Origin: a virus
Lineage: Duplodnaviria > Heunggongvirae > Uroviricota > Caudoviricetes
Length of the DNA stretch: 24,197 nt
IMG/VR virus record: IMGVR_UViG_2619619133_000006
Span: 1 to 24,197 of that record
Direction: 5' to 3' (one strand)
Part shown: piece by piece, positions 12,049-24,197 of the stretch
Position numbering within the stretch: the stretch's first letter is position 1
Layout of the letters: each line of letters starts with the position of its first letter
Made by a program: the position numbers and the translations under genes
Notes under the pieces: generated by a model
Told to the model about the DNA's origin: nothing
The model's input: the letters and a program-made list of their open reading frames with translations, nothing else
The model's database searches: none

Positions 12049-12196
12049 GGAGTAAAACACTCGATTAATCTCGTGTTAATGCCATCACCTACGACCATTA
12101 CTAATTGATTGAATCTTATAGAAAAAATCATCATTTTCTATGCATTACAATCAATTTTCACATTACAAACGCTCCGACACTTTAGCCGGGGAGTTT

Positions 12197-13474
12197 ATGA
12201 GATACAAGCCCAATCAATACATAATCTGTGATTCTTACGGTAACTACTATTTGAGGATCACGTTGCCTGTGTATATGCAGCCCTTTTTTGAAGGAAAAAG
12301 GACGTTTGTCAGGAGTCTGCATACAAGTAACCTTCGTGTTGCACGTAGAAAGCGTGATCAGATTGCAGATGAATACCATTGTTTACGGGAGAGTGTCGCC
12401 CCTGTAAACAGCACAATAGAGAACACGCTGGAACTGTTACGCAGTAAGGCTAAATACGCCAAAACAGCTACCAGAATGCAAGATACAGCGTCTTCGTGTC
12501 CGTCATTGCTTAAAATTCTTGAAATCTACCTGACAATTAACAGCACGAAGAAGAAGCCAGCCACTTTAGCTAAGGCAAGAAAAGCGGTAGAGATGTTTCT
12601 CTCCTACCGTAAAAAGCCTGATATTGCATTGCAAGATGTGAGCCGCACCACTGTTACAGGCTGGATTGAACACATGCAAAAAACCCTTTCACAACAATCA
12701 ATTGCAAATTATATCAGCCCAATGGCCCAGCTATGGGAGTTAGCTTCATCACGTTACCACGATGCGCCAGAAAGGGCGCTCTCCCCCTGGCGAGGGCATA
12801 GGCTTGATGTGGCACAAAGTAGAGAGAGCTACGAGGCATTTTCTAACAAAGAGCTATTGCAGGTGTTGCAAGTATTTTCCGGTAATTCAGCAGAAAACAA
12901 AGAAATGATGGCTTTGTGTCTTATCGGTGCTTATACAGGTATGCGGATCAATGAGATAGCAAGTCTCACAATAGACGATGTGAAAGAGATCGAAGGTGTG
13001 CTGTGTTTTGAAATCACACAGGGAAAAACGAAAGCTGCGGCACGTGTTGTGCCTGTACATAGCCTTATCACTCCGTTGGTGTTGTCGCTGCGTGAAAAGC
13101 CTCATAATGGCTTTTTGTTCTATCACGCCAGCATTACAGAGCGTGCTGATGGTAAACGTTCCACGTGGCACACGCAGAGATTTACAAGAGCTAAACGAAA
13201 GGCTTTAGGGGAAAAGGGAACAGAAAGGAAGGTGTTTCATTCTCTGAGACACGGAGTAGCACAGCTTCTTGATCGAAATCAAATTCCAGAAGACAGGATC
13301 GCCCTTCTCCTGGGCCATACACGCGGTAATACAGAGACATTCCGCACATATAGCAAGAATGCAGCTTCTCCAGTAGAGCTTAAAAACTATATTGAGCTTC
13401 TACGCTACCCTGAAATAGAGAAAGGCTTATCAATCAATAAAAAATCAAATTTAAGGCGTAAAACAACGCCATAG
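12197..13474 (+). CDS. Tyrosine integrase (second, unrelated family)
   Basis: Likely start at the internal ATG with GGGGAG RBS (track ORF begins at 12140). Catalytic motifs HSLRHGVAQLL and ETFRTYSKN; N-terminus NGNYYLRITLP typical of integrase arm domains. Confidence 0.75.
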   Translation: MRYKPNQYIICDSYGNYYLRITLPVYMQPFFEGKRTFVRSLHTSNLRVARRKRDQIADEYHCLRESVAPVNSTIENTLELLRSKAKYAKTATRMQDTASSCPSLLKILEIYLTINSTKKKPATLAKARKAVEMFLSYRKKPDIALQDVSRTTVTGWIEHMQKTLSQQSIANYISPMAQLWELASSRYHDAPERALSPWRGHRLDVAQSRESYEAFSNKELLQVLQVFSGNSAENKEMMALCLIGAYTGMRINEIASLTIDDVKEIEGVLCFEITQGKTKAAARVVPVHSLITPLVLSLREKPHNGFLFYHASITERADGKRSTWHTQRFTRAKRKALGEKGTERKVFHSLRHGVAQLLDRNQIPEDRIALLLGHTRGNTETFRTYSKNAASPVELKNYIELLRYPEIEKGLSINKKSNLRRKTTP

Positions 13475-13481
13475 ACGCAAT

Positions 13482-13520
13482 AAAGAGGCTTCAACATAGA
13501 TTGGTAGCCTCTTTTATAAT
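13482..13520 (+). terminator. Hairpin with a weak T-tract after the second integrase
   Basis: aagaggct / agcctctt stem with 15-nt loop, followed by TTTATAATT. Confidence 0.35.
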
Positions 13521-13555
13521 TACATCGTTACAGAGCGTTTTAGAGGCATTTACGG

Positions 13556-14269
13556 CTATTCCTGTTTAAAGGCAGGAGTAATAGTGTCTTCACCTTCACT
13601 ACTAGATTTTTCAGTGTTAACACGTTTTTTCATATTAGCCCCGATGTTCTTAGATGGCTGTGTTTTGATAGCTACAGTGTTTACAGTGCCATAAGACACT
13701 AATCTTATTTGCTCAAAGCTAAGATCAAATACCAGAGATTCGCTTGCCTCTTCTGTGTATTCGATGCCTGTTAAAACAACGTTCTCAAAAGTTTTATTTT
13801 CTGTAACAAGAAGAAAAGGCTGTCTACTGTCCATAATCTGATTCAGGTAGTCGATAGCTAATGATCTTCTGTTCCCGTTCACCCCTGCACTCTTTAACAA
13901 GCCAGGATCGCTTTTAATCGGTGTTTCAGTGATCCTTCCCTTAAGAGAAAACTTATTGTTTTTAATTTGAACGTGATCAGACACAGTAGCACCATTCTCT
14001 ACGGGGTAGCTTGTGACATCTGCCGAACGTCTCACGTTCACATCATCTACACTGTCAAAGGCCAGTGCCATATAATTTTCATAAACGTCATTGCCAGAAG
14101 ATGCCAAGCCACTTGTAACAATAGCAAATCCATTCTCTCCTTTTGTTTTATTAGCTTTGCTATTTTCGTTTTTTGTAGAGTTTATATCTTGTTCTGCTTT
14201 GTAAACAGCCTGAACGTGTTGTTCTGGAGTATTTGCTGCACGTATGGTTAAAATTCCCGCCGTTGCCAT
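13556..14269 (-). CDS. Hypothetical protein (virion-protein-like composition)
   Basis: 237-aa ORF with AAGGAAA RBS; rich in N/S/T/G; last gene of the minus-strand cluster, facing the integrase. Confidence 0.4.
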   Translation of the reverse strand: MATAGILTIRAANTPEQHVQAVYKAEQDINSTKNENSKANKTKGENGFAIVTSGLASSGNDVYENYMALAFDSVDDVNVRRSADVTSYPVENGATVSDHVQIKNNKFSLKGRITETPIKSDPGLLKSAGVNGNRRSLAIDYLNQIMDSRQPFLLVTENKTFENVVLTGIEYTEEASESLVFDLSFEQIRLVSYGTVNTVAIKTQPSKNIGANMKKRVNTEKSSSEGEDTITPAFKQE

Positions 14270-14290
14270 AATAATAATTTCCTTGTAATG

Positions 14291-16132
14291 TTATGGCGGA
14301 AATTCCCCGCCGTTAGATTGTCCTGATAAGCTGGTTAATGTTAATGATTTCAAGAAGCTATCCCGACTTGCTCTCGCTGTAAAATCCACATAATCGCTTA
14401 ATCTTGATGTGTCACTATTAATAGTAAGCGGAACCTCTGTTACCACTTCAAATGTAGGATTCAGATTAAACACAGGAGATAAATTATAAGCCGGAGTTGT
14501 CATTGCAAGATTATTTAAAGCACCCTGTTTGAGATTGGTTATCGGTGCTTCATTGACTGACATTTTTACATCTGACACAGAAGATTTATCATCGAAAAGC
14601 AATCCCTTAATCGTGTTAAAGAGAGAATGACTATTATCAGGTGTAGTTGTTGCAGTGCCAGCGCCTTTATATTGATCAGGAACGAGATTAGAAAGATTCT
14701 GTTTCATTCCGTCATTGCTTAATGGCGGTGCATCACCTAAATTTTTCTGAATAGCCTCTGTCTTATCATCATTACGATTAAACCAGTTTACAATCTTCAT
14801 AATAGCTTCAAAGAGACTTCCTACAGCTTCTCCCAGCTTCGTAAAATACGGAGTGAGATTAGAAAGGTTTTTCATAAACTCTTCCGTTACTTTTGGATCG
14901 AGAGATTTCATAAAGCCATCAACAAAGGCGATCCCTTGTGAGTCAGAAAGCCCACTAAGTGCATTATTCAGTTCACGGAATTTAATAACGCTTTCCTGTT
15001 GTGCCTGTGTTACCCAGCGCCCTGATTCTCGTTGTTCTCGTGCTGATTGTTCCACTTCTTTAGCGGAGCGTGTCCAGTATTTAGAGGTGAGCATCAAATC
15101 ATCAGCCAGATCTTCCAGACGACTACCGATCTGCGCATCTGAATAGCCCTTTTTCACCATTCCATTGACAGCTTTACTAACCAGACCAGCCGGATTATCA
15201 GCAAAGTCTTTTAAATCTTTCTTAGTTAAGAAACCTTCGTTAAGTAAAGTATTAATACCTGAATCGCCGCCCTTCCATTCGCCTCGGCCTGTTTTCTTAT
15301 CAACTACATATTCAGCTTCATCATAAGATTTGGTTGCACGTTCACGCACATCTTTCATCTGATCCAGATACTTGCGACGACCTTGATCCCCCATCATTGA
15401 ATCAACGCCGTTTTTATACGCCCATTGTTCAATATTGTTCATCTGGTTAACATCTACACCGCCCAGCTTCGCACGGCTATACAATTCACCCAGCGTTTCA
15501 GCGTTAGCGAAGCTGTTAGCCATAAATTCAGAGGTTTTACTAACAGCCATCACGCCAGCAGCAGCCGTAGCGCCTCCAAATAACAGAGCGCCCATAGTGG
15601 CGGAATTCCCTGATCCTCCCTTAACGGGGGCTAATTGTGCTTTTCTGTTGCCATTAATTTTACGTTGTTGCTGTTGTAAGCGTTTCATCTGGCTATTCAT
15701 ACGTGCAAGCGAGATAGCGCCTTGTTCGTATTGTTTGGCTATCTCACGCGCCTGTGCAATAGCTTTGTATTGTTCCGCTACAGAGAGGCGGTGCATTGCA
15801 CTGATAGAGCTTGAAACATCAAGGAGCTTTAACTCTGCTTTCTCTTTACGTGCTGCTATTTGTGCCTGTTGCCTTGCCTGTGCTCTTGCTGCGGCAGCTT
15901 GTGCTTTTTGATTCTGTTTTTCGTTTTTCGCTTTTTGCTGGGTAATCTTGTCTACTTCACTTTGTGCTTTCTTATAGCCTTTAGTGACACTATCAAACCT
16001 TAATTTAGCTGGCTTGATATTTTCTGTGAATTCTTTTAGGCTTGTAATAGAGTCTTTCGCTTTTTTCAAGCTGTCTTTATCTACACTAAATGTTACTGTG
16101 TTCTTAATTTTAGAAGTGTTAATTTCTAACAT
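14291..16132 (-). CDS. Large hypothetical protein with N-terminal coiled-coil/low-complexity region (structural or ejection-protein-like)
   Basis: 613-aa ORF with GGGGA RBS; N-terminal KAKNEKQNQKAQAAAARAQARQQAQIAARKEKAELK; no catalytic motif recognised. Confidence 0.45.
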   Translation of the reverse strand: MLEINTSKIKNTVTFSVDKDSLKKAKDSITSLKEFTENIKPAKLRFDSVTKGYKKAQSEVDKITQQKAKNEKQNQKAQAAAARAQARQQAQIAARKEKAELKLLDVSSSISAMHRLSVAEQYKAIAQAREIAKQYEQGAISLARMNSQMKRLQQQQRKINGNRKAQLAPVKGGSGNSATMGALLFGGATAAAGVMAVSKTSEFMANSFANAETLGELYSRAKLGGVDVNQMNNIEQWAYKNGVDSMMGDQGRRKYLDQMKDVRERATKSYDEAEYVVDKKTGRGEWKGGDSGINTLLNEGFLTKKDLKDFADNPAGLVSKAVNGMVKKGYSDAQIGSRLEDLADDLMLTSKYWTRSAKEVEQSAREQRESGRWVTQAQQESVIKFRELNNALSGLSDSQGIAFVDGFMKSLDPKVTEEFMKNLSNLTPYFTKLGEAVGSLFEAIMKIVNWFNRNDDKTEAIQKNLGDAPPLSNDGMKQNLSNLVPDQYKGAGTATTTPDNSHSLFNTIKGLLFDDKSSVSDVKMSVNEAPITNLKQGALNNLAMTTPAYNLSPVFNLNPTFEVVTEVPLTINSDTSRLSDYVDFTARASRDSFLKSLTLTSLSGQSNGGEFPP

Positions 16133-16147: not shown

Positions 16148-16351
16148 TTAATCATTTTTACAACCTTCTTTACTTAAGAAATGGTGTAGAGCCTGATCAA
16201 TACTCTCGTTTAATCTGAACATACGGGCTTTTACTCCTTCATATGGAACATCTAAGAGAGAACATAGATATTTCAGATTTAACAAGCCTCTAGAATCATT
16301 AGCATCTAAATGTACGTGGACACCATTTTTTGATTTCAGAATCACTTCCAT
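16148..16351 (-). CDS. Small hypothetical protein
   Basis: 67-aa ORF with GAGAGGTGA RBS immediately after the A19 terminator. Confidence 0.35.
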   Translation of the reverse strand: MEVILKSKNGVHVHLDANDSRGLLNLKYLCSLLDVPYEGVKARMFRLNESIDQALHHFLSKEGCKND

Positions 16352-16373: not shown

Positions 16374-16420
16374 AAAAAAAAAAAAAAAAAAAGGCGAAGC
16401 GTGAATACACGCCACGCCTC
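16374..16420 (-). terminator. Strong intrinsic terminator after the capsid-like gene, with a 19-nt homopolymeric T tract
   Basis: On the minus strand: hairpin ggcgtggcgtg-tatt-cacgcttcgcc (about 10 bp, one mismatch) followed by T19 (A19 on the plus strand, 16374-16392). Confidence 0.6.
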
Positions 16421-16436: not shown

Positions 16437-17465
16437 TTATTTAACAGTGATTTGAACGGAGAAGCCTACACCGTGGTTTACAACCATCTGGCTATTCTCT
16501 GTAACAACGTTAACAGCATCACCACGAGAAGATTCATAGCTATAGCTGTAAACCTCAGTAGGAGCGGCATTAATCAGTTCAAAGGTGCTGGAAGCAGCCC
16601 CGTAGATGTTCTGATATACGTTAGAGCCTTTAGCGAATTTAGGCACAGCTACAGCGTCTGCGGTCATATGTGCAAGGTGTAGCGGATCTACCAGTTTAAC
16701 AACATCAATGTTAGTTCCTGGAATAGTGAACGCTGTCACCCCTGGCAGCAGGTCACGACGCTGATACACAACGTTCCCTTCTTCCAGTGGGCTTACATAC
16801 TGGAATGCGTTTGCCATACCCGCAGAGAATCGAATTGCAGAGAAGGCTTCCGGCTTACAGAAAACAACAATACGCTCTACAGCAGCCGCCTGGCTTTGTG
16901 CTTTCTCGATAATGTCAGTAGCAATCTGATCAAATTCTTTAAAAATCTTCGTGGTGTCAGTGCTGGAAGCGTTCACAGTGGCTTTCATAGCTGATACGTT
17001 AAACAGCTTGCCCCACTCGATAAGAACATCATCAGTTTTAGGCGTGTAAGTTTTGCCAGAGAACAAAGAAGCCGCCAACACGCTCTCTTTAGTGCGCTGA
17101 TACGCTACGTGGTGTTTAGCAACATAGTCAGCATAGATATCAGTGAGTGTTTCCTGGAAATCAGTGCCAGGTTTACGTTTGCCTTGAACATCAGAAGGAC
17201 GGATCACATCTTCACGAAGAAAATACGGGATTTCAATCAGCCATTCTTTACCTTGTTCTCGCTTAGTAACGTTGTGTTCAGAAGAGAAACGAGAGGTTTC
17301 TTTGTTAAAGAGAGATTCGTTGCTTTCGACAAGCTGGGAAACAGCTACTTTATGAGAACTAACGCCCACCGGATCAGTGAAGTCGAGGGTAGAGAGCAGA
17401 TAGTTTCTAGTGCTATGAGCCTGGAAAAGCGGAGCTAAATCAACGTAATCATTACCTAGAATCAT
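16437..17465 (-). CDS. Putative major capsid protein (local similarity to T7 gp10-type capsid protein)
   Basis: 342-aa ORF. VERIVVFCKPEAFSAIRFSAGMANAFQYVSPLEEGNVVYQRRDLLPGVTAFTIPGT parallels T7 gp10A ADRVFYCDPDSYSAILAALMPNAANYAALIDPEKGSIRNVMGFEVVEVPHLT as recalled. Size, strong terminator after it and operon position fit a highly expressed structural gene. Confidence 0.45.
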   Translation of the reverse strand: MILGNDYVDLAPLFQAHSTRNYLLSTLDFTDPVGVSSHKVAVSQLVESNESLFNKETSRFSSEHNVTKREQGKEWLIEIPYFLREDVIRPSDVQGKRKPGTDFQETLTDIYADYVAKHHVAYQRTKESVLAASLFSGKTYTPKTDDVLIEWGKLFNVSAMKATVNASSTDTTKIFKEFDQIATDIIEKAQSQAAAVERIVVFCKPEAFSAIRFSAGMANAFQYVSPLEEGNVVYQRRDLLPGVTAFTIPGTNIDVVKLVDPLHLAHMTADAVAVPKFAKGSNVYQNIYGAASSTFELINAAPTEVYSYSYESSRGDAVNVVTENSQMVVNHGVGFSVQITVK

Positions 17466-17483: not shown

Positions 17484-17846
17484 TTAAGAAGTGAAAACAG
17501 AGTGGAACCCTTCAAGCTGGAAGCCTTTTTTAATTAATGCTGTTTTTGCTGCTTCACTTACAGCATTCAGCGCATCAGCTTTGATGCAGACAAGCCCAGC
17601 ATTGCTACGTAGCACATCTACAGGCTTGTTGTCTCCAGCCGTTAAAAACTCACTCATAACAACATAGATATCATCTCCTGATTCATATTTAGCGCCAGTG
17701 CTTGTGATCAAGTCGCCGCACTCAACATCAGCAGGAAGAGAAGCAAAAACCTTGCTTTCTACAGAGGCAAACGGATCAGTACAATAACTTACAATATCTG
17801 TGAAAGTCTTTCGAACTGGAAATAGAGTGTCTAAATCAATAATCAT
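17484..17846 (-). CDS. Hypothetical protein upstream of the capsid-like gene
   Basis: 120-aa ORF overlapping the upstream stop (ATGA). Confidence 0.4.
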   Translation of the reverse strand: MIIDLDTLFPVRKTFTDIVSYCTDPFASVESKVFASLPADVECGDLITSTGAKYESGDDIYVVMSEFLTAGDNKPVDVLRSNAGLVCIKADALNAVSEAAKTALIKKGFQLEGFHSVFTS

Positions 17847-18055
17847 TTAGTAATCTCCTTAGCTTTTAATTTGATTAATTCATTAAGGGAAGGTGTAGAC
17901 GGAGAAGAAGGAGAAAAATATTTTTCAACACATCTTTCTACTTCCTCGACAGAACACCCAGCGTATTTAGCTACCATTTCGGTAATTTGTGGATTAATTT
18001 TCAGCATTTCATCTTTATACTTGATGATTTGCTCTTTATCATTTAAGAACAACAT
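17843..18055 (-). CDS. Small hypothetical protein
   Basis: 70-aa ORF, first gene after the 18.06-18.39 kb intergenic region. Confidence 0.35.
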   Translation of the reverse strand: MLFLNDKEQIIKYKDEMLKINPQITEMVAKYAGCSVEEVERCVEKYFSPSSPSTPSLNELIKLKAKEITK

Positions 18056-18329
18056 TTATATAAACCTTGTTACCTTGTTTAAAGTAAGAAATACAACTTT
18101 TAAGTTGCATAACGGGCAAAATAAAAGGCAGCATTTAAAGCCGCCTTTGTAATTACCCTATGTTATGCACACTCCAAGATGTATGCATAACAAAGGAAAA
18201 AAGAGGTAATAATGACACAGTATTTACTTAAGGAGGAGAAGCGGGGAGCGGAGATTTTACTCCCCTTTAACGACAAGAAGAATTTTTAATATCGAACCAA
18301 TAAAGGAAAAATAATCACCCCATATAATT

Positions 18330-18358
18330 ATATTAACATACAATAGATGGAATGTCAA
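18330..18358 (-). promoter_or_regulatory. Candidate sigma70 promoter for the capsid-containing operon
   Basis: Minus strand TTGACA (18358-18353), 17-bp spacer, TAATAT (18335-18330). Downstream palindromes CAACTT-TT-AAGTTG (18095-18108) and TTATGCA-N14-TGCATAA (18163-18190) could be operators. Confidence 0.35.
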
Positions 18359-18387: not shown

Positions 18388-18726
18388 TTATTCTTCTGTG
18401 ATAGTAGCGCCTAAGCGTTGAGCTAGTTCAACAAGTCCGTCTCCTACATAGCGAACGTCCGATTCAAGACCTTCTATCCAGTTTGATAGCTCCCATAGCT
18501 GAGCCGCTGTCAGATATGCGTTCTCACGCTTACAGAGCATCTCTACACGCTTAGAGAGGTGCTCAAAGGCATTCACAGCTAAATCCCAGTGTTTAAACGC
18601 CTCATTTAGTGCCGCTGGCGTGTTTTCTTTGTATGCTTCAAGTTCAGCGCGGTTTAAAGGCAGGAGGTAATCATCCTCATAATAATTAATTAGTGAATAA
18701 ATTGTGTCATACGTGTTTTTGTTCAT
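18388..18726 (-). CDS. Hypothetical protein
   Basis: Likely start at the ATG at 18726 (GGAGA RBS, 2 nt after the upstream stop) rather than the track start at 18753; about 112 aa. Confidence 0.4.
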   Translation of the reverse strand: MNKNTYDTIYSLINYYEDDYLLPLNRAELEAYKENTPAALNEAFKHWDLAVNAFEHLSKRVEMLCKRENAYLTAAQLWELSNWIEGLESDVRYVGDGLVELAQRLGATITEE

Positions 18727-18727
18727 A

Positions 18728-19138
18728 TTAAAAGTCTCCATAGTGATCAACATTATCTAGAATATGGAATTCTGGGACTAAATTATTTAGGCCATTTGTG
18801 GCGAGATAACCAACGTAGTGGTTATAGTCTTCAAATCCTAAAATCTGGTATTTGCGGAGTTCGTCAGAACTAACAATATACTCTTTTCTTTTTCTAGGTT
18901 TCCAGAATACACCAGGTGTTGAAGATAAGATTTCTTGTAATGCGTTAAATTCATCTCCACAAGGCACAGAGGGAGAATGTTCTATGATCTCTGTTTTCCA
19001 TTCGCCAGGGGCGCTATTTTGCTTGGTGAGCGTAACTAGCTCTTTAAAGTCTTTACGTCTTAGAATAGATTTAGGTTTACTTAGAAGAGAAGCTGAATCA
19101 CCGATTTTCTTAACAACGTTGTTTTTTCTTTTTGCCAT
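18728..19138 (-). CDS. Hypothetical basic protein
   Basis: 136-aa ORF; lysine/arginine-rich N-terminus MAKRKNNVVKK. Confidence 0.4.
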   Translation of the reverse strand: MAKRKNNVVKKIGDSASLLSKPKSILRRKDFKELVTLTKQNSAPGEWKTEIIEHSPSVPCGDEFNALQEILSSTPGVFWKPRKRKEYIVSSDELRKYQILGFEDYNHYVGYLATNGLNNLVPEFHILDNVDHYGDF

Positions 19139-19270
19139 TATTTACTTTTCCTTTTCTTTTAAAGGAAAACACCCCGAAGTATGTTTCTAACGTGAGAAAG
19201 AACAATAACCAATACATAGCTACTATCATAATAATGTTTTCCTTTTATATTTTAATTACATAGAGAGATT

Positions 19271-19546
19271 TTAGAGAGTGGAATAGATGAATTCTACTTT
19301 ATCTAGTCTTTTGAGATTGAATGTAGAGAAAGATAATTCTTTAATCTCTATAACACCGAAATTTGATAGCTGTCTAAGCCAGAATTTTAAACCATCTTCA
19401 GAGCAAGCTGCTCGATGTAACACATCGCTATATTTTAGCGGTGTTGGCTTTCCTTTATAGAGGTAAGCAAGTGTTTCGTAGATGCGTTTTCCTGTGTCAT
19501 TACACTGAATTCTGTCTACTTGATTTTTTACTAAATATTGAATCAT
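19271..19546 (-). CDS. Small hypothetical protein
   Basis: 91-aa ORF in the operon. Confidence 0.35.
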   Translation of the reverse strand: MIQYLVKNQVDRIQCNDTGKRIYETLAYLYKGKPTPLKYSDVLHRAACSEDGLKFWLRQLSNFGVIEIKELSFSTFNLKRLDKVEFIYSTL

Positions 19547-19557: not shown

Positions 19558-20247
19558 TTAAAATGGAATATCAAAGTCTTCATATACTTTGGGATGTTTC
19601 TTAGCAAAATATGCCTCAATACCATTTGGTAGCTTTAACCTGTGCTTATAGGCTAACGATGTTGCAAATTCTATAAAGGATGCCCCTCCTGTTCTGGTAT
19701 TCTTCTGCGTGATAATAAGAGAGGCAAAATTCTCTAACACATCCTCCTCATTATCATTAGCTACCTTTTCATTTGATGAAACAGGTGTTTCTTCCATCTC
19801 CCAGGGTAAAGGCGTATCCCAATCATCAAGAACATCAAAAGAAGGCTGTTTATGGCCTTTAGGTTGTTCCTGTGCTTCTTCTGCCTCAGAAAGATCAGAG
19901 AGTGATGATTCTCCTGGGGGAGTAATATGTGCATCTGTGAGAGGGAGAGCATTGTAAATCAAAGATGAAATATACGGATCAGGATGTGGGGATGTTTCTA
20001 ATAATCCCATCTCTTTAAGATCGTTTATCTTACGTTTAATTGTTGACGCTGAAGACTTAAAAATCTTAGCTAATGTTTCGTGACTTTCATAACAATTAAG
20101 GTTGTTTTCCTGATAACTAAGGAATCGAAAATAAAGCACAATATGTAATAGTTCTAAATCTTTTCCTTGAGGGAATTTATCAGAATAAATCTTTGATACA
20201 TTATCAAACGTGTCATAGTGTTTTGTAAAAGTTAGTTGATTAATCAT
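19558..20247 (-). CDS. Putative DNA-binding / replication-initiator-like protein (N-terminal winged HTH, acidic linker)
   Basis: 229-aa ORF; LELLHIVLYFRFLSYQENNLNCYESHETLAKIFKSSASTIKRKINDLKEMGLLE resembles the HTH of phage/plasmid initiators; lies near the iteron region. Confidence 0.35.
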   Translation of the reverse strand: MINQLTFTKHYDTFDNVSKIYSDKFPQGKDLELLHIVLYFRFLSYQENNLNCYESHETLAKIFKSSASTIKRKINDLKEMGLLETSPHPDPYISSLIYNALPLTDAHITPPGESSLSDLSEAEEAQEQPKGHKQPSFDVLDDWDTPLPWEMEETPVSSNEKVANDNEEDVLENFASLIITQKNTRTGGASFIEFATSLAYKHRLKLPNGIEAYFAKKHPKVYEDFDIPF

Positions 20248-20298: not shown

Positions 20299-20466
20299 TC
20301 ACTTACCCTTTTTTTGTTTGATGTTCTCTGCTGCTTCAGTAATGATTTCTAACATCAAATCACTGACCATAATTTGCCTTTTCTTGGCTTCAGCAAATAA
20401 AACCTTGAAGATTTCAGGGTCAACGTGTAGGTAAGTGCGCGGAATTGGTTTCTTAGTTTCGCTCAT
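20299..20466 (-). CDS. Small protein (55 aa), possible DNA-binding regulator
   Basis: Below the ORF-track size cutoff. ATG at 20466-20464 with AGGAGA RBS; MSETKKPIPRTYLHVDPEIFKVLFAEAKKRQIMVSDLMLEIITEAAENIKQKKGK; a beta-strand-then-helix pattern is compatible with ribbon-helix-helix, which is uncertain. Confidence 0.3.
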   Translation of the reverse strand: MSETKKPIPRTYLHVDPEIFKVLFAEAKKRQIMVSDLMLEIITEAAENIKQKKGK

Positions 20467-20485
20467 AGTTTTCTCCTTCTATTCT

Positions 20486-20674
20486 TTACTCTGTTTCAGA
20501 TTCTTTTTCATTTTTTCTTAATTCATCAATAATCTTGAGTGCTTCATTGAAGCAAGCTGCTCGCTCTGGATAACCTCGACTCCTTGCCATATTACGATTC
20601 ATTACTATTTGATGGCGTGTAAGCTCACCTTTTTTAAATGCCTGGATGACGTGCTCAGATGTAAACCATTTCAT
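20486..20674 (-). CDS. Small hypothetical protein (first gene of the minus-strand operon)
   Basis: 62-aa ORF directly downstream of the candidate promoter at about 20.8 kb. Confidence 0.3.
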   Translation of the reverse strand: MKWFTSEHVIQAFKKGELTRHQIVMNRNMARSRGYPERAACFNEALKIIDELRKNEKESETE

Positions 20675-20784: not shown

Positions 20785-20813
20785 ATTATTACATATAAAG
20801 AAACATTTGTCAA
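20785..20813 (-). promoter_or_regulatory. Candidate sigma70 promoter facing the 62-aa gene
   Basis: Minus strand TTGACA (20813-20808), 17-bp spacer, AATAAT (20790-20785). Confidence 0.3.
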
Positions 20814-20905
20814 TACCCTTTCCGAAAAAAATCGATCTTTTTCATGCACTTACATTTTTTCTTAGCTATTCGTGCTCTTCTGTGTAGTGCTATTCTTCCT
20901 TATTG

Positions 20906-20935
20906 TCTAAAACGCTCTAAAACGCTCTAAAACGC
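20906..20935. repeat. Three exact tandem copies of 10-bp TCTAAAACGC
   Basis: Copies at 20906-20915, 20916-20925, 20926-20935. Confidence 0.7.
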
Positions 20936-21349
20936 GTTATAACGAGATTTTGATAAAAGCAATACATTCCCTTATGTAATGGCTGTTTAGCTCGCCAGAG
21001 GCTTATTTAAGGGGCTTATTTTGTATTTGTTAGGTATATGAAAAGGTAATGGTAGATATAAGATAGAGAGTCACTTTATAAAACGCTATGTAAAGCCCTG
21101 TAGTGAGCTTATATGTGTAGGCAATGCGTTTCCATTCCCTACCCTGCTTAATGCTGTTAGAGAAGCATTTAGACCCCTTATTTTTAATTAATTAAAGTAT
21201 CCTCTATACATTCCTGTTATGAAACACCTCTGAATCCTTCATAAAACACATTATGACGCAAAGAACACTTTTCTAAGGTGATTCCCTTCCTGAATGCTGT
21301 TTCTTGCGTCAGAGAGCTACAGAGAGCTTATAAAGCTATTATTAATAAT

Positions 21350-21410
21350 AAAGTAGATAAAGTAAGATAAGTAAGTAAGATAACTAAGATAGATAAGATT
21401 AATAAGATCA
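21350..21410. repeat. AT-rich GATAA / TAAGATAA repeat cluster
   Basis: aagtagataaagtaagataagtaagtaagataactaagatagataagattaataagatcag; multiple GATAA units. Confidence 0.5.
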
Positions 21411-21450
21411 GAATTCTCTTTCGGTGTCGCCTCTGGCTTTTCCACCGAAA

Positions 21451-21617
21451 ACAATTACACGACTACAGAATGTAGGAAGTGGAATTGTATTGAGGCTTAG
21501 TGAAATTACACGAGGAAAGCAGAGTGTAATTGAGCTTTAGCCGCTCTCTCTTCGAGTAATTACACAACTACAGAGAATAACGAGAGTTATTAAGTGTAGG
21601 AAGTGGAATTAAGAGGT
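21451..21617. repeat. Dispersed direct repeats (AATTACAC-N-ACTACAGA and 16-bp TGTAGGAAGTGGAATT, two copies each)
   Basis: TGTAGGAAGTGGAATT at 21471-21486 and 21595-21610 (exact); AATTACAC(G/A)ACTACAGA at about 21453 and 21559; the second copy carries a palindromic insert aataacgagagttatt. Confidence 0.6.
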
Positions 21618-21649
21618 AGAGAGAGTTACACATAAGCAATCAGTATGAT

Positions 21650-21835
21650 TGGTTAGGTGATTACTCTTCTGCGCACAGCGCAATAGTATTTCTTCGTGGG
21701 CGTTATCGCCAACGAAGTTACACGAAGAAAGTAACGCTTTGCTTTCGGTGTGAGCGGAACGGGCCAGCCACGAAGCCCGAAAGGTAGCGGAGTAAGGCTG
21801 CTTGCCAGGGAGTGAAGCTAACGCCGGAAGGCAAA
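21650..21835. ncRNA. GC-rich structured island inside the AT-rich origin-like region; candidate regulatory RNA
   Basis: Hairpins cttcgtgggcg-ttat-cgccaacgaag (21683-21708) and ctttcgg...ccgaaag (21739-21781). The only long ORF here (21609-21842, minus) translates to non-protein-like sequence. Confidence 0.25.
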
Positions 21836-21840
21836 AGATC

Positions 21841-21852
21841 ATATATATATAT
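21841..21852. repeat. (AT)6 dinucleotide repeat; candidate DNA-unwinding element
   Basis: atatatatatat immediately upstream of the 22-bp iterons. Confidence 0.4.
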
Positions 21853-21924
21853 AGATATAAAGAATATTATTATTATGATCTAATTAATAATCTAATATAG
21901 TTTTATTAATAGTCTTATTGTAGT

Positions 21925-22026
21925 TCACAGTGACCTACCCCCTAGCTCACTATGACCTACCCCCTAGCTCACTATGACCTACCCCCTAGCTCATAGTGAA
22001 CTACCCCCTAGGTCACAGTGACCTAT
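21925..22026. repeat. Iteron array A: 4.5 tandem copies of 22-bp TCACTATGACCTACCCCCTAGC
   Basis: Copies at 21925, 21947, 21969, 21991 (variant) and partial at 22013; directly abutting, no spacers. Confidence 0.8.
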
Positions 22027-22082
22027 ATAGTATAAAGAATATTATTTATATTATTTAATTATAGTATTTAATTATAGTATTG

Positions 22083-22184
22083 GTGGAACTCATTTCCTAG
22101 GTAGGTAGGAACTCATTTCCTAAGTAGGTAGGAAACCACTTCCTAGGTTACTTCCTAAATAGATCGGAAATCATTTCCTAGGTG
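22083..22184. repeat. Iteron array B: 4-5 copies of about 23-bp GGAACTCATTTCCTAGGTAG-like unit
   Basis: Copies at about 22085, 22108, 22131, 22166; each contains internal GGAA...TTCC dyad symmetry. Confidence 0.75.
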
Positions 22185-22198
22185 TTATTTATACTTAT

Positions 22199-22262
22199 CG
22201 GGTATCAGTTTTGATAGGGGTATCAGACTTGATAGGGGTAACAGAATTTTGTTAGGGTAAAA
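22199..22262. repeat. Iteron array C: 3-4 copies of about 18-bp TTGATAGGGGTATCAGA
   Basis: Copies at 22211-22227 and 22229-22245, plus partial copies on both sides. Confidence 0.7.
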
Positions 22263-22304
22263 ATCTCTTTAAAAGTTAAGATTAACAGAATTCTGTGGGG
22301 GTGG

Positions 22305-22341
22305 TTCACTATGACCTACCCCTAGTTCACTGTGAGCTACC
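22305..22341. repeat. Two further array-A-type iterons about 280 bp from the main array
   Basis: ttcactatgacctacccctag (22305-22325) and ttcactgtgagctacc (22326-22341). Confidence 0.65.
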
Positions 22342-22470
22342 GTTACATTCAATCATCTTCCGATGTGTAATATCGTTACATTCAATAATTAGTCTATGTA
22401 ACATATCGTTACTACCAACTTTCTTACAGAGAGCATTTCAGATAGCTGAATGTAACCTCTCGTTACATCC
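22340..22470. repeat. Repeat family CGTTACAT(T)C (4 direct copies plus 1 inverted)
   Basis: Copies at about 22340, 22372, 22406 and 22460; inverted copy tgaatgtaacc at 22447. Confidence 0.6.
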
Positions 22471-22936
22471 ATTTGTCACATAGCACTCTGTGTAATGTCT
22501 TTCTATGTGTGTGCCATAATCCCCCTATATTCCCTGTGTAAATCATAGAATATCCCTAACTTATTCCTGTGTAATTCCCTACTAAAAAATCCAATGAAAA
22601 ATGGCTTCAAAGTGCAATGTTAGCTTTCTTCACTTTTACATCACTTTCGCAAAGCCTTGTGTAATGCGGTTTACAGAGCACCATCAGAAATTGTTGGCTA
22701 AAAATTGTTCTGCTTGTTTCTTAATGAGTTTTCTTGTTTGTGCAAATTTTAAAATTTATTTTGTTTTTACAGCCTTATTTCGTGTAATGCGTGGCATAGC
22801 AAGCCCTTTTCTTGTGTTGTCAAGACATTTGGCAACGTTCAAACATCTGTTTAGAAATGCCAAATTATTGATCTAACAAATAAACCTGTATAAACAGAAC
22901 ACCATTTAATCTATTCCCCTGTGTATCCATTAGGCA

Positions 22937-23045
22937 TACCAAATGAATACAGCTAAATCGTGTAATATTCCGTACCCATAAGGCTTGAAACAGACCAAAT
23001 GAATACGATATACTCATTTGCATTGAAGTAGTGCCAAATCGATAC
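22937..23045. promoter_or_regulatory. Candidate recombinase-binding (res-like) site upstream of the serine recombinase gene
   Basis: Direct repeats ACCAAATGAATAC (22937-22949, 22997-23009) and related GCCAAATCGATAC (about 23031), 15-120 bp upstream of the recombinase start. Confidence 0.3.
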
Positions 23046-23059
23046 ATTAAGAGGATTTT

Positions 23060-23599
23060 ATGAGCAATATCGGTTATAAGCGTGTGAGCACTGTAGATCA
23101 GAACACTGATCGCCAGCTTGCAGGAGTAACGCTTGATAAAGTCTTTGAAGATAAGCTGTCAGGTAAAGACACTAACCGTCCAGGCTTACAAGCGTGTTTA
23201 TCCTATCTGAGAGAAGGCGACACCTTACACGTGCACTCTCTCGATCGTTTAGGGCGTAACACCTTAGACATTCTTGCCTTAGTGGAACAACTTAATAATC
23301 GTGGTGTAATTGTTCGCTTTCACAAAGAAGGGATCATTGCAGACATTACAAGCGCGATGGGAAAGATGATGCTTACGATGTTGTCGGCAGTTGCAACGTG
23401 TGAACGTGAACTGATGTTAGAGCGTAAACGAGAAGCGCAAGCCGTCAATCCTACAAAGCGTGGTAAAGGTAAAGCAGTGGATAGGGAAGGTATAAAGAAA
23501 GCCCTTTCTGATGGCCTGTCAGTGCGTAAAACCGCCGAGAGCTTTAATGTTGCTCCTTCAACGGTACAGCGAATTAAGAAGGAAGAAGAGGAGGCGTAA
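23060..23599 (+). CDS. Small serine recombinase (resolvase/invertase family)
   Basis: 179-aa ORF; catalytic N-terminus MSNIGYKRVSTVDQNTDRQ with Ser in the RVST motif; aligns in pattern with Hin/Gin/Tn3 resolvase; C-terminal HTH LSVRKTAESFNVAPSTVQRI. Confidence 0.85.
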   Translation: MSNIGYKRVSTVDQNTDRQLAGVTLDKVFEDKLSGKDTNRPGLQACLSYLREGDTLHVHSLDRLGRNTLDILALVEQLNNRGVIVRFHKEGIIADITSAMGKMMLTMLSAVATCERELMLERKREAQAVNPTKRGKGKAVDREGIKKALSDGLSVRKTAESFNVAPSTVQRIKKEEEEA

Positions 23600-23710
23600 T
23601 GCCTCCTTGATATTTGGGGATTCTGGATTTTCCAGATCGGGGGGCGCTGAAAATCGCGTTAAGCACCTCTCGCAATCTAGCCATAAGGGAAGGAATATAG
23701 GTATTTAGAT

Positions 23711-23750
23711 GTATTTATAGCTATTTATGGCTATTTATGGCTATTTATTT
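23711..23750. repeat. Four to five tandem 10-bp repeats (G/C)TATTTAT(G/A)G
   Basis: gtatttatag, ctatttatgg, ctatttatgg, ctatttattt in tandem; 10-bp phasing. Confidence 0.65.
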
Positions 23751-24038
23751 TTTATTTACCTTTATTTAAAAATAACCTTATAAATCAATAAGATACAGAA
23801 CTATCTGTTTATATTTTAACCAATTAAATCAAGTTTAATACCCTTAAATAACCTGAAAATAGCCTTAAATACCCCAATAATTAATTTTAAGGTTTTCCGT
23901 GTTCTCTTCTGCATTATGAAAATGCAAAATAAGGCACAAAACAAGCGCACAGACGCATTAAACACACATCACCTATACATCCCTATACCAAGCAATGAAA
24001 ACAGCGTTAGAATGCGTCCTGTTGGGTTCTGGAGATTT

Positions 24039-24197
24039 TCAGAAATCCTCTCTAAGCCATTTCAACTCACTAAGGAGTTTTCTTTCTTCGTTCTCTCGCT
24101 GTTTACGCTCTAGCCAGGCTTTTCCTTCTGGCGTAGACAGGAACTTACGAGCGTGAATCTTGCGGTTATTACGTTTTATAGCTGCAATGTTTTTCAT
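24039..24197 (-). CDS. Small basic hypothetical protein (52 aa), start codon at the window edge
   Basis: Minus-strand ATG at 24197-24195; MKNIAAIKRNNRKIHARKFLSTPEGKAWLERKQRENEERKLLSELKWLREDF; below the ORF-track cutoff. The start may lie further upstream outside the window. Confidence 0.25.
   Translation of the reverse strand: MKNIAAIKRNNRKIHARKFLSTPEGKAWLERKQRENEERKLLSELKWLREDF

What the first reader, a model, noticed from the sequence alone, without database searches (positions are those of the whole stretch)
12049..24197. AT-rich integrative element combining a capsid-like gene, a plasmid-like iteron origin and a serine recombinase, but no visible portal or terminase
Right of the att core the composition turns visibly AT-rich. 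The element carries its own tyrosine integrase, a minus-strand operon of nine-plus small unknown proteins, a 342-aa capsid-like gene ended by a strong terminator, a 613-aa coiled-coil protein, a 2.3-kb non-coding region with several iteron families, and a resolvase-type serine recombinase. This does not fit the satellite families I know (P4-like, PICI, cf-PICI, PLE) or a complete phage. It could be a new satellite or phage-plasmid-like parasite of the neighbouring prophage or of a podovirus-like helper.
Basis: partly seen in the sequence, partly recalled or inferred. Interest (0 to 1): 0.85.

Follow-up and report, generated by a model that had tools for sequence, protein, structure and literature searches.

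The report
Satellite of phi92-like virulent coliphages
This 12.6-kb island at the thrW tRNA gene looks like a previously undescribed phage satellite: it carries its own capsid and tail-core genes plus a copy of the genome-end signal of phi92-like virulent phages, so it probably hijacks those phages to spread.

Summary
Window 12035-24197 is nearly all of a 12.6-kb element flanked by thrW att repeats. Only about 415 bp lie beyond the window, so there is no room for a portal or terminase gene.

It is not a decayed prophage. The same compact gene order recurs in E. coli, Klebsiella, Enterobacter, Citrobacter, Serratia and Sodalis.

Its structural genes are a colinear subset of those of phi92-like virulent myoviruses (Stephanstirmvirinae):
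- a head-decoration-like protein;
- a major capsid protein;
- a tape-measure homologue of Phi92_gp134;
- a tail-tube initiator, 60% identical to the gp135 homologue.

Beside the second recombinase, 79 bp of non-coding DNA match the phage concatemer junction. A 40-bp identical core straddles the right boundary of phi92's 343-bp direct terminal repeat.

Best reading (about 0.7): a new satellite family that replicates from its own iteron origin, is cut and packaged by the helper's terminase, and supplies its own capsid shell and tail core.

Its proposed helpers (the neighbouring SfII-like prophage, or a podovirus) are not. All evidence is computational; I found no paper describing such an element.

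The parts
12035..12053 (.). attL core, a 19-bp copy of the 3' end of tRNA-Thr thrW (reverse complement). It is shared with the SfII-like prophage to the left.
   Evidence: Two copies 12,577 bp apart flank the element in SF-468.
12140..13474 (+). Tyrosine integrase, 444 aa
   Evidence: PF00589 E 3e-17, plus DUF6538 and SAM_5; phrog_1 E 4e-33. Unrelated to the neighbour's integrase outside the catalytic motif.
13556..14269 (-). Tail-tube initiator (Dit-like), 237 aa, homologue of Phi92_gp135
   Evidence: PF21821 E 3e-29. 60% identical (E 2e-92) to bas60_0019 of phage PaulScherrer. Solved chain 21vq_N Phi92_gp135, E 2e-78; also 'tube initiator' chains 9cuy and 7yfz.
14291..16132 (-). Tape-measure protein homologue, 613 aa, homologue of Phi92_gp134
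   Evidence: phrog_16051 E 6e-50. 28% identity over residues 150-609 and 56% over the first 66 residues to the PaulScherrer tape measure. 21vq_V Phi92_gp134, E 5e-36. DNA is 80% identical across the start codon.
16148..16351 (-). Core 67-aa protein, helix-turn-helix-like by sequence pattern (my reading), present in all family members; function unknown
   Evidence: Family alignment across six genera. AlphaFold model: beta-hairpin plus three helices, pLDDT 78. No structural neighbour.
16396..16420 (-). Intrinsic terminator after the capsid gene
   Evidence: 9-bp stem with 5 G-C pairs and a T-run.
16437..17465 (-). Major capsid protein, 342 aa (lambda gpE / PF03864 family)
   Evidence: PF03864 E 6e-14 over the full length. 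21% full-length identity to the PaulScherrer capsid protein, E 9e-9. Solved chain 21uy_N Phi92_gp124, E 2.5e-6. Homologues of 37-98% identity occur only in Enterobacterales chromosomes.
17484..17846 (-). Head-decoration-like protein, 120 aa, sitting directly upstream of the capsid gene as in phi92-like phages
   Evidence: Transitive homology. Family profile A2 to P0165: hhalign probability 97.7%, E 1.6e-12. P0165 to phrog_2680 'head decoration': E 1.7e-5. The phage decoration protein bas60_0007 to phrog_2680: E 7e-39. The direct comparison is weak, E 0.03, sharing a C-terminal ...VFTS.
17843..18055 (-). Core 70-aa protein of unknown function, first gene of the capsid operon
   Evidence: Conserved in all family members. 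No family hit.
18124..18358 (-). Near-consensus sigma-70 promoter (18330-18358: TTGACA, 17 nt, TAATAT), an approximately 180-nt leader, then an intrinsic terminator (18124-18148), all ahead of the capsid operon. Possible antitermination control point.
18388..19546 (-). Three small variable ORFs (121, 136 and 91 aa) of unknown function
   Evidence: No family hits. Content differs between family members.
19558..20247 (-). Putative replication initiator, 229 aa, winged helix-turn-helix
   Evidence: phrog_270 'replication initiation protein' E 6e-9; PF13730 HTH_36 E 2e-5, just below Pfam's cut-off. Highly divergent between members. The 22-bp iterons occur only with this Rep type.
20299..20674 (-). 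Two small ORFs (55 and 62 aa) at the head of the early operon
   Evidence: The position is conserved in all members. No family hits.
20785..20944 (.). Promoter-like site for the early (rep) operon (20785-20813, minus strand, 11 of 12 consensus matches) and three 10-bp repeats TCTAAAACGC (20906-20944), a possible operator
21484..21835 (+). Conserved structured block, a candidate non-coding RNA (or single-strand initiation element) leading into the origin
   Evidence: 75-86% DNA identity to Klebsiella and Enterobacter elements whose capsid proteins are only 55-63% identical. RNA fold z-score -3.2. In a hand-made structural alignment of 9 sequences, 111 of 111 cells pair and 7 of 15 pairs change on both sides; slid controls give 30-49% and none. 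No Rfam match.
21836..22340 (.). Origin-like region: AT-rich tracts with GATC sites, 22-bp iterons x4.3 (21931-22025) with inverted copies (22297-22340), 23-bp repeats (22085-22183) and 18-bp repeats (22200-22257)
   Evidence: Iteron clusters of different sequence sit at the same place in other members. No DnaA box.
21454..22966 (.). GTGTAAT heptamers: 10 of the window's 14 copies. They lie on the minus strand left of the iterons and on the plus strand right of them.
   Evidence: 14 found against 3.25 expected; 0 of 100 shuffles reach 14.
22826..22875 (+). Copy of a conserved block from inside the helper's terminal repeat (phi92 DTR positions about 135-185; TTGGCA ... TGCCAA dyad)
   Evidence: blastn 78% to PaulScherrer 94781-94830 with an exact 16-mer. 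nhmmer E 5e-8 against a profile of three phage junctions. The block is also conserved between phi92 and a Klebsiella phage.
22922..23046 (.). res-like site: three direct 12-13-bp repeats CCAAATGAATAC with inverted partners, just upstream of the recombinase gene
   Evidence: 3 copies against 0.01 expected.
23060..23599 (+). Small serine recombinase (resolvase/invertase type), 179 aa
   Evidence: PF00239 E 1e-33; phrog_125 E 1e-54. A small tyrosine recombinase takes this position in Klebsiella, Enterobacter, Citrobacter, Serratia and Sodalis members.
23603..23681 (+). Mimic of the helper's terminal-repeat right boundary. A 40-nt core identical to phi92 has the DTR end (…CGCGTTA|AGCACC…) falling at 23661|23662. 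Predicted terminase recognition and cleavage site.
   Evidence: 46 bp at 95.7% identity to 62 Stephanstirmvirinae-like records, E 5e-12; in phi92 the match lies at 318-363 of a record whose annotated DTR is 1-343. nhmmer E 4e-18. Equivalent sites in the Klebsiella (E 5e-10 to a Klebsiella phage DTR) and Enterobacter elements.
23696..23875 (.). Five 10-bp repeats TATAGCTATT (23696-23748) and a second boundary-like site CTGAAAATAGCCTTAAATACCCC (23853-23875, 18 of 23 matches)
   Evidence: 0.025 such sites expected per shuffle.
24039..24197 (-). Basic 52-aa ORF, the last gene before attR
   Evidence: Annotated as WP_000788777.1 in SF-468. No family hit.

Best explanation
The element is a member of a previously undescribed family of phage satellites of Enterobacterales. 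Its helpers are predicted to be phi92-like virulent myoviruses (Stephanstirmvirinae: Justusliebigvirus and Phapecoctavirus).

Shown by the sequence:
- It is a 12.6-kb att-flanked island at thrW with its own integrase.
- It has a Rep-like protein next to an iteron-rich non-coding region.
- It has a second small recombinase with a res-like site.
- It carries a colinear subset of the phi92 virion genes: decoration-like protein, major capsid protein, tape measure (gp134 homologue) and tail-tube initiator (gp135 homologue).
- It has no portal, terminase, protease, scaffold, sheath, tube or baseplate gene.
- Its non-coding DNA reproduces the two best-conserved blocks of the helper's 343-bp direct terminal repeat, including the exact right boundary.

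Inferred life cycle:
1. Infection by a phi92-like phage induces excision and replication from the iteron origin. A structured RNA may be transcribed into that origin.
2. The capsid operon, normally held back by a leader terminator, is expressed. The satellite's capsid and decoration proteins then build a small shell, sized for about 12.6 kb rather than 148 kb, on helper portal and scaffold.
3. The helper terminase recognises and cuts the boundary mimic and packages satellite DNA.
4. The satellite's tape measure and tube initiator are built into otherwise helper-made tails.
5. After injection into a new cell, the small recombinase acting at its res-like site helps to circularise or resolve the DNA, in the manner of Cre/lox in phage P1. 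The integrase then inserts it at thrW.

Steps 1-5 are inference. Step 5 is the most speculative.
For: Size and completeness: att cores lie 12,577 bp apart in SF-468, and the remainder beyond the window has no convincing ORF.

Conserved architecture: Klebsiella, Serratia, E. coli, Enterobacter, Citrobacter and Sodalis members share the gene order while their capsid proteins are only 37-77% identical.

Helper link through proteins:
- Tube initiator 60% identical, E 2e-92; Phi92_gp135 E 2e-78.
- Tape measure E 2e-29; Phi92_gp134 E 5e-36.
- The Klebsiella member's tape measure is 40-42% identical to Phapecoctavirus ones, E 2e-85.
- The capsid protein is related to Phi92_gp124.
- The decoration link is transitive.
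- Gene order is colinear with the phage.
- The best phage hits of the tube initiator (56-60%) and all but a few tape-measure hits are Stephanstirmvirinae or unclassified records of similar size.

Helper link through DNA:
- 79 bp match the phi92 concatemer junction, with a 40-nt identical core centred on the DTR end.
- The site is unique in both genomes.
- Profile E 4e-18.
- The same site occurs in the Klebsiella and Enterobacter members, where the best match is a Klebsiella phage with the same 343-bp DTR.
- The mimicked blocks are those best conserved between distant phages.

Replication: the 22-bp iterons co-occur only with the matching Rep type, and iteron clusters sit at the same place in other members.

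No hallmark gene of a known satellite family or defence system was found.

Prevalence: 238 of 5426 complete E. coli genomes carry at least 80% of it, and 765 carry some of it.
Against: - There is no experimental evidence of induction, packaging or transfer.
- I found no free or virome-derived contig. All IMG/VR hits are prophage calls from isolate genomes.
- No mimic of the helper's DTR left boundary was found, so how both genome ends would be made is unknown.
- The capsid protein is only 21% identical to the helper's. Compatibility with helper portal and scaffold is therefore an assumption.
- Why a satellite needs its own tape measure and tube initiator is unexplained.
- The conserved junction block could be a promoter or regulatory site of the phage rather than a packaging site.
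- The decoration-protein assignment is transitive only, and its structure prediction failed (pLDDT 41).
Confidence: 0.7

Rival explanations
1. Interference-only (defence) island. The element does not transfer in particles. It uses decoy copies of phi92-like structural proteins (tape measure, tube initiator, capsid) and a decoy terminase site to poison the assembly and packaging of invading phi92-like phages.
For: Homologues of two physically adjacent tail-core proteins, gp134 and gp135, resolved in the same solved entry 21vq, could act as dominant-negative subunits. The boundary mimic could titrate terminase. Assembly-blocking defences carried on mobile elements are known (papers listed: PMC10884400, PMC11364771).
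Against: Full-length, conserved capsid and decoration genes, a dedicated replication module, integrase with intact att sites, and spread across genera at different att sites are what a transferable element needs, not what a decoy needs. No PADLOC model matches convincingly. Interference and transfer are not exclusive in known satellites.
Confidence: 0.12
2. Decayed remnant of a temperate relative of phi92-like phages, that is, a cryptic prophage with no present function as a unit.
For: The structural genes are a colinear subset of a phage morphogenesis cluster. RefSeq annotates them simply as phage proteins.
Against: The same compact 12-13.5-kb gene set, with intact ORFs and no pseudogenes, recurs in at least six genera with 37-77% capsid identity. 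Random decay would not repeatedly leave this subset. The att repeats are intact. The non-coding region is at least as conserved as the genes: 93% column identity against 94.8% for the whole element. Every related phage record returned that I inspected is a 128-154-kb genome, and the one read in full (PaulScherrer) has no integrase.
Confidence: 0.08
3. Satellite of a different helper, such as the neighbouring SfII-like prophage or a podovirus.
For: It sits in tandem with an SfII/SfV-like prophage at the same att core.
Against: The best phage matches of the tube initiator and tape measure and all 62 matches of the terminal-repeat site are Stephanstirmvirinae-like, and no such match is to an SfII-like phage or a podovirus. 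The element occurs without that neighbour. The two integrases are unrelated.
Confidence: 0.05
4. Integrative plasmid-like element (phage-plasmid relative) that is maintained extrachromosomally through the iteron origin and a resolvase.
For: Rep-like gene, several iteron families and a resolvase-type recombinase with a res-like site.
Against: 944 of 946 places in E. coli are chromosomal. No plasmid record shares the origin region apart from copies of the element. There are no partition genes. It is always att-flanked with an integrase.
Confidence: 0.05

Closest known systems
[quoted passage not shown]
   Same: An integrative island of about 12-15 kb that makes its own capsid and depends on a helper for the remaining virion parts.
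   Different: cf-PICIs encode a complete head module (HK97-type capsid protein, portal, protease, head-tail connectors, small terminase) and take only tails, from temperate helpers. This element has only a capsid and a decoration-like gene (PF03864 family), with no portal, protease or terminase. It carries tail-core genes instead and copies the helper's genome-end site.
[quoted passage not shown]
   Same: Predicted to parasitise a virulent myovirus. Has its own replication initiator and origin, and relies on the helper's packaging machinery.
   Different: By my knowledge, PLEs remodel the helper's own coat protein with a scaffold (TcaP) and carry no capsid or tail homologues. There is no sequence relationship. 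The host and helper lineages are different.
P4-like satellites (helper P2)
   Same: About 11-12.6 kb, tRNA-associated integrase, carries the helper's DNA-end recognition site (cos in P4), own replication, small capsid expected.
   Different: P4 uses the helper's capsid protein with the external scaffold Sid and encodes the alpha primase-helicase, Psu and Delta. None of these is found here. The helper here has direct terminal repeats, not cos ends. In a Citrobacter genome this element and a P4-like satellite lie side by side as separate units.
PICMI (minimalist islands of Vibrionaceae, virulent helpers)
   Same: Satellites of virulent phages that depend on the helper terminase (abstract of PMC10803314, listed).
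   Different: According to that abstract, PICMIs have reduced gene content and no capsid-remodelling genes. This element carries four virion-protein homologues.
phi92-like phages (Justusliebigvirus / Phapecoctavirus)
   Same: Homologous tube initiator, tape measure, capsid and (remotely) decoration proteins in the same order, and the same terminal-repeat boundary sequence.
   Different: The phages are 145-150-kb virulent genomes with a full virion and replication gene set. The element is 12.6 kb and integrative, and none of its other eleven ORFs has a significant match (E below 1e-4) in the PaulScherrer genome.

Membership tests
Phage satellite (generic kind) | Discrete integrative element with its own recombinase and flanking att repeats | tested here: met
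   Integrase. The 19-bp thrW core flanks a 12,577-bp unit in SF-468.
Phage satellite (generic kind) | Lacks a complete set of virion and packaging genes | tested here: met
   All ORFs of the 12.6-kb unit were scanned. None is a portal, terminase, protease, sheath, tube or baseplate gene.
Phage satellite (generic kind) | Carries a cis-acting packaging signal matching that of its helper | tested here: met
   A 79-bp match to the phi92 concatemer junction, with a 40-nt identical core across the DTR right boundary. That this site directs packaging is inferred, not shown.
Phage satellite (generic kind) | Helper-dependent induction, packaging and transfer | not testable with these tools
   Needs infection experiments. 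No virome-derived free contig was found.
P4-like satellites | Alpha primase-helicase, Sid/Psu capsid-size genes, Delta/Ogr-type activator, P2-type cos site | tested here: not met
   No Pfam, PHROG or NCBIfam hit to any of these.
PICI (Gram-negative type) | int, alpA, pri-rep module and packaging-redirection genes (small-terminase-like, Rpp or Ppi) | tested here: not met
   No AlpA, primase or small-terminase hits.
cf-PICI | Complete head module: capsid protein, portal, prohead protease, head-tail connectors and small terminase (plus HNH) | tested here: not met
   Only a capsid protein (PF03864) and a decoration-like gene are present; the rest is absent.
PLE | Homology to the Vibrio PLE gene set (RepA_N-type initiator, TcaP, and others) and an ICP1 helper | tested here: not met
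   No such hits. The element is confined to Enterobacterales.
Phage-plasmid | Extrachromosomal maintenance with plasmid replication and partition genes, plus a full virion gene set | tested here: not met
   944 of 946 places are chromosomal. No plasmid relatives of the origin. No par genes. Incomplete virion gene set.
Iteron-type theta origin | Tandem iterons next to an AT-rich region and a cognate initiator gene | tested here: inconclusive
   Iterons, AT-rich tracts with GATC and a Rep-like protein are present, and the 22-bp iterons co-occur with the Rep type. However, there is no DnaA box, Rep binding is untested, and two repeat families are shared between elements with unrelated Reps.

The most novel reading that the evidence does not exclude
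A satellite family that parasitises large virulent myoviruses of E. coli and its relatives by building chimeric virions. It would supply its own capsid shell and decoration, and its own tail core (tape measure plus tube initiator). It would steal portal, terminase, sheath, tube and baseplate from the helper, and gain access to the helper's terminase by copying the exact boundary of its direct terminal repeat. A recombinase/res module beside that site would recircularise the injected DNA, in the manner of Cre/lox in P1. A conserved structured RNA would feed the iteron origin. This would be the first satellite known to encode tail-core proteins, and the first E. coli satellite of a virulent phage.
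Probability: 0.35. Interest if true: 0.9.

Novelty: new variant of a known kind. Interest (0 to 1): 0.8.

Why it matters
- Therapy relevance. By my knowledge, phi92-like and Phapecoctavirus phages are broad-host-range virulent coliphages that are often isolated for therapy and biocontrol. An element present in 4% (nearly complete) to 14% (any part) of complete E. coli genomes that hijacks or blocks them would affect phage efficacy. It would also provide a route of gene transfer driven by virulent phages.
- New mechanism. A satellite carrying tape-measure and tube-initiator genes would extend the known ways of virion piracy from heads to the tail core.
- Packaging site. The conserved 40-nt core across the terminal-repeat boundary marks a candidate terminase cleavage site for this phage group. 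I know of none described, though I did not search the literature for one.
- Testable system. The helpers (phi92, the BASEL phage PaulScherrer) and carrier strains (SF-468, NCTC10973) are named isolates with complete genome records.

Tried and rejected
- Rfam, at gathering and permissive thresholds, on the window and on the SF-468 copy: nothing above noise.
- tRNA scan: none. Only the 19-bp tRNA-Thr fragment is present.
- Mimic of the helper's DTR left boundary: local alignment no better than shuffles (score 33 against mean 26, maximum 47). No nhmmer hit. No convincing second TTR^AGC site in direct orientation.
- DnaA boxes and a Fur box in the non-coding region: none.
- NCBIfam and PADLOC on the unknown ORFs: only sub-threshold helix-turn-helix noise.
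- AlphaFold model of the 120-aa protein: unusable (pLDDT 41.5).
- AlphaFold model of the 67-aa protein: acceptable (pLDDT 78), but no Foldseek match in PDB or BFVD at E below 0.09.
- Direct profile comparison of the 120-aa family with the phage decoration protein: not significant (E 0.03). Only the transitive link holds.
- MAFFT plus RNAalifold on the RNA 3' domain: weak (-2.1 kcal/mol), because the alignment is not structure-aware. It was replaced by a hand alignment, which is biased towards the structure.
- IMG/VR: 11 loci, all from isolate genomes, none a free satellite-sized contig. A 12.3-kb metagenome scaffold has no terminal overlap.
- Non-coding region against plasmids and phages: no relatives.
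- Literature: seven full-text searches found no satellite of phi92-like, rV5-like or Stephanstirmvirinae phages. The library is incomplete, so this is not proof of novelty.

Full report
**What is in the window**

The right half of the window begins at a 19-bp sequence, TGGTGCCGATAATAGGAGT (12035-12053). This is the reverse complement of the 3' end of tRNA-Thr thrW (identification of thrW from my knowledge of the E. coli gene). It is unique in the window.

To its left lies the end of an SfII/SfIV/SfV-like temperate prophage (97% identity). That prophage's integrase stops 15 bp before the core.

To its right the GC content drops to 0.34-0.45.
- a tyrosine integrase at 12140-13474;
- thirteen minus-strand ORFs from 13556 to 20674;
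- a 2385-bp stretch without convincing ORFs;
- a small serine recombinase at 23060-23599;
- a 52-aa ORF whose start codon is the last triplet of the window.

**The element is complete and small**

A megablast search finds the segment in 765 of 5426 complete E. coli genomes. In 238 of them at least 80% is covered, and 944 of 946 places are chromosomal. The best identity is 95.9%.

In strain SF-468 the element lies in the thrW island region, between a vat toxin island and other islands. There the att core occurs twice, 12,577 bp apart. By that measure the window ends about 415 bp before attR, and the missing piece has no convincing ORF.

**What the genes are**

Pfam and PHROGs identify four ORFs:
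- 13556-14269 is a Dit-like tail protein (PF21821, E 3e-29).
- 14291-16132 is a tape-measure protein (phrog_16051, E 6e-50).
- 16437-17465 is a major capsid protein of the lambda gpE family (PF03864, E 6e-14).
- 19558-20247 is a winged-helix replication-initiator-like protein (phrog_270, E 6e-9).

Searches of 50,697 phage records show where these come from. The best tube-initiator hits (56-60% identity) and nearly all of the tape-measure hits are 128-154-kb myoviruses. Those carrying a genus-level name or taxonomy line belong to Justusliebigvirus or Phapecoctavirus, subfamily Stephanstirmvirinae (the phi92-like phages). I did not look up the taxonomy of the remaining records.

Against phage PaulScherrer:
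- the tube initiator is 60% identical (E 2e-92);
- the tape measure is related over most of its length, with 56% identity in the first 66 residues;
- the capsid protein aligns end to end at 21% (E 9e-9).

Solved structures give the same answer. The three proteins match Phi92_gp135 (E 2e-78), Phi92_gp134 (E 5e-36) and Phi92_gp124 (E 2.5e-6). gp134 and gp135 are resolved in the same entry, 21vq. Other matches of the 237-aa protein are named 'tube initiator'.

The 120-aa ORF just upstream of the capsid gene occupies the place of the phage's head-decoration gene. A profile of its family finds remote relatives (P0165: hhalign probability 97.7%, E 1.6e-12). Those relatives hit the same PHROG, 'head decoration' (phrog_2680), as the phage protein. 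The direct comparison is not significant, so this assignment is only moderately supported.

None of the other eleven element ORFs has a significant match in the 150-kb PaulScherrer genome. The serine recombinase shows only a weak family-level match (32%, E 4e-4).

**A shared cis-acting site**

The same whole-genome comparison revealed two short non-coding matches.

The stronger one lies just downstream of the serine recombinase. It matches 62 phage records, all of this phage group by name, taxonomy or genome size (142-154 kb), at up to 95.7% identity over 46 bp (E 5e-12). In the phi92 record it lies at 318-363, overlapping the annotated 343-bp left terminal repeat.

I aligned it to the reconstructed concatemer junction of phi92. 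Window 23603-23681 matches over 79 bp. A 40-nt identical core places the right end of the terminal repeat (…CGCGTTA|AGCACC…) at window 23661|23662.

The second match (22826-22875) corresponds to a dyad-containing block in the middle of the repeat.

A profile built from three phage junctions (phi92, PaulScherrer and a Klebsiella phage that also has an exact 343-bp repeat) scores the two window sites at E 4e-18 and 5e-8. These two blocks are also the parts of the repeat best conserved between the E. coli and Klebsiella phages.

I read this as mimicry of the helper's terminase recognition and cleavage site, as in P4 with the P2 cos site. That the block is a packaging signal rather than, say, an early promoter is inferred from its position on the boundary. 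It is not demonstrated.

I did not find a copy of the left boundary. There is a weaker second boundary-like site 206 bp downstream, and an inverted one inside a gene.

**It is a family, not a wreck**

Capsid-protein homologues of 37-98% identity occur only in chromosomes of Enterobacterales. I read the neighbourhoods of members from Klebsiella, Serratia, a divergent E. coli, Enterobacter, Citrobacter, Sodalis and two metagenome scaffolds. All share the following order:
1. a second small recombinase;
2. 1.6-2.7 kb of non-coding DNA;
3. one or two small ORFs;
4. a Rep-like protein;
5. variable small ORFs;
6. a non-coding gap;
7. a 66-74-aa ORF;
8. the 117-126-aa decoration-like ORF;
9. the capsid gene;
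10. in all but one, a 59-67-aa ORF;
11. a 613-650-aa tape measure;
12. a Dit-like or a 92-155-aa ORF in most members (neither is called in E. coli L015 or Serratia L005);
13. the integrase.

Modules are swapped by analogy:
- The second recombinase is a serine enzyme in E. coli and a 183-205-aa tyrosine enzyme elsewhere.
- The integrase is a large serine recombinase in Sodalis.
- Rep proteins are barely alignable.

The Klebsiella and Enterobacter members carry the boundary mimic next to their small recombinase. It matches a Klebsiella phage better than phi92 (E 5e-10 and 2e-8). The Klebsiella tape measure is 40-42% identical to Phapecoctavirus ones (E 2e-85).

Intact ORFs, intact att sites and a repeated, compact gene set at this divergence are not what decay of a prophage produces.

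**The non-coding region**

Tandem Repeats Finder and the repeat finder confirm the iteron families.

- The 22-bp family (21931-22025, with inverted copies at 22297-22340) occurs only in elements with the window's Rep type.
- The 23-bp and 18-bp families are shared with elements that have unrelated Reps. Only the 22-bp set is therefore a good candidate for Rep iterons.
- Other members have iteron clusters of different sequence at the same place, next to AT-rich tracts. In the members whose sequence I read, these tracts carry GATC sites.
- The heptamer GTGTAAT is strongly enriched (14 against 3.25 expected). It switches strand across the iterons.

Between the early promoter and the iterons lies a block (about 21484-21835) that is conserved at 75-86% DNA identity with Klebsiella and Enterobacter elements.
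- It folds better than shuffles (z -3.2 on the plus strand).
- Its 3' domain exists in three sequence versions whose helices change in a compensatory way: CAGCC/GGCUG, UGUCC/GGACA, ACC/GGU; GGC/GCC against GGG/CCC; CG/CG against GG/CC.
- It has a GAAA loop and G-U pairs that make sense only on the plus strand.
- In a hand-made structural alignment of nine sequences, all 111 cells pair and 7 of 15 pairs change on both sides. Slid controls give 30-49% pairing and no compensatory pair.

This count is biased by the hand alignment and rests on only three independent versions. I therefore call it a candidate structured RNA (or single-strand element) feeding the origin. Rfam has nothing like it.

Neither the plasmid nor the phage collection contains a relative of this 2.4-kb region.

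**Other cis features**

- A near-consensus sigma-70 promoter (18330-18358) is followed by an approximately 180-nt leader and an intrinsic terminator (18124-18148), before the capsid operon. A second strong terminator follows the capsid gene. This suggests control by antitermination, which is my inference.
- Upstream of the serine recombinase are three direct 12-13-bp repeats with inverted partners (22922-23046; 3 found against 0.01 expected). This is the layout of a res site.
- A recombinase, of either chemistry, always sits beside the terminal-repeat mimic. I therefore propose that it recircularises or resolves the injected or replicated DNA, as Cre/lox does for P1. This is the least supported step.

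**Comparison with known systems**

The element works most like a satellite.
- It differs from cf-PICIs, which have a full head module and steal tails.
- It differs from P4 and PLE, which remodel the helper's coat protein and have no virion homologues.
- It differs from PICMIs, which have no capsid-remodelling genes.

None of those families' hallmark genes is present. Seven full-text literature searches found no report of a satellite of phi92-like, rV5-like or Stephanstirmvirinae phages. The library is incomplete.

**Verdict**

- The satellite interpretation is supported, but with a different helper: phi92-like virulent myoviruses.
- I rate the element a new variant of a known kind, that is, a new satellite family. 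Confidence is about 0.7 and interest 0.8.
- Everything rests on sequence analysis. Induction, packaging, particle composition and transfer need experiments.

Noticed in passing
window 1-12034: The left half of the window is the integrase-proximal end of an SfII/SfIV/SfV-like serotype-converting-type prophage (97% identity over 65-71%). It shares the thrW att core with the element, so the two form a tandem array at one tRNA gene.
   Followed up: partly
L017 15544-21032 (Citrobacter freundii CP162975.1): Here the element lies directly beside what looks like a P4-like satellite (integrase, AlpA, DUF5375, primase with Zn_ribbon_Prim/Toprim/DUF927). Two unrelated satellite types sit in tandem.
   Followed up: no
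L018 821-2533 (Sodalis sp.): This family member has a 570-aa large serine recombinase at the opposite end in place of the tyrosine integrase. The integration module has been swapped while the core is kept.
   Followed up: no
L002 4394-5083; L016 2311-3932; L017 1654-3816: Accessory cargo between the small recombinase and the element end differs. Klebsiella has a Dam-type methyltransferase. Enterobacter and Citrobacter have an HNH protein plus unknown ORFs. The window's element has only a 52-aa ORF there.
   Followed up: no
PaulScherrer MZ501100.1 94717-94740 and 94913-94935; L002 4061-4082: The terminal repeat of phi92-like phages contains a palindrome, ATGCAAATGATAATCATTATCA, that by my count matches the 19-bp E. 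coli Fur-box consensus at 17 positions. The Klebsiella element carries the same motif. The window has none.
   Followed up: partly
window 18556-18578 (minus strand, inside the 121-aa ORF): A 23-mer matches the terminal-repeat boundary core at 17 of 23 positions (…TTTGAGCACCTC), in inverted orientation. It is conserved in SF-468. Together with the site at 23853 this makes two such sites against 0.025 expected. Meaning unknown.
   Followed up: partly
window 21454-22966: GTGTAAT heptamers (10 copies in 1.5 kb) point in opposite directions on the two sides of the iteron cluster. No binding protein is assigned.
   Followed up: partly
phage records MG065639, MG065645, MG065656, MG065689 and others: Several GenBank records named 'Campylobacter phage' (about 146 kb) match the element's tape measure and terminal-repeat site in the same way as phi92-like coliphages do, which makes the host label look doubtful.
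   Followed up: no
L001 30564-30612 (SF-468): At the element's right end the tRNA-derived repeat runs for about 46 nt rather than 19. It probably belongs to the att site of the next island in the array (DUF4365 gene, partial integrase).
   Followed up: no
window 22085-22190 compared with SF-468 (alignment A1): Between two elements that are 95% identical, whole repeat modules are present or absent (the 23-bp family and a CGTTACATTCAAT segment), while the flanking non-coding DNA is nearly identical. The repeat region appears to evolve by cassette gain and loss.
   Followed up: partly
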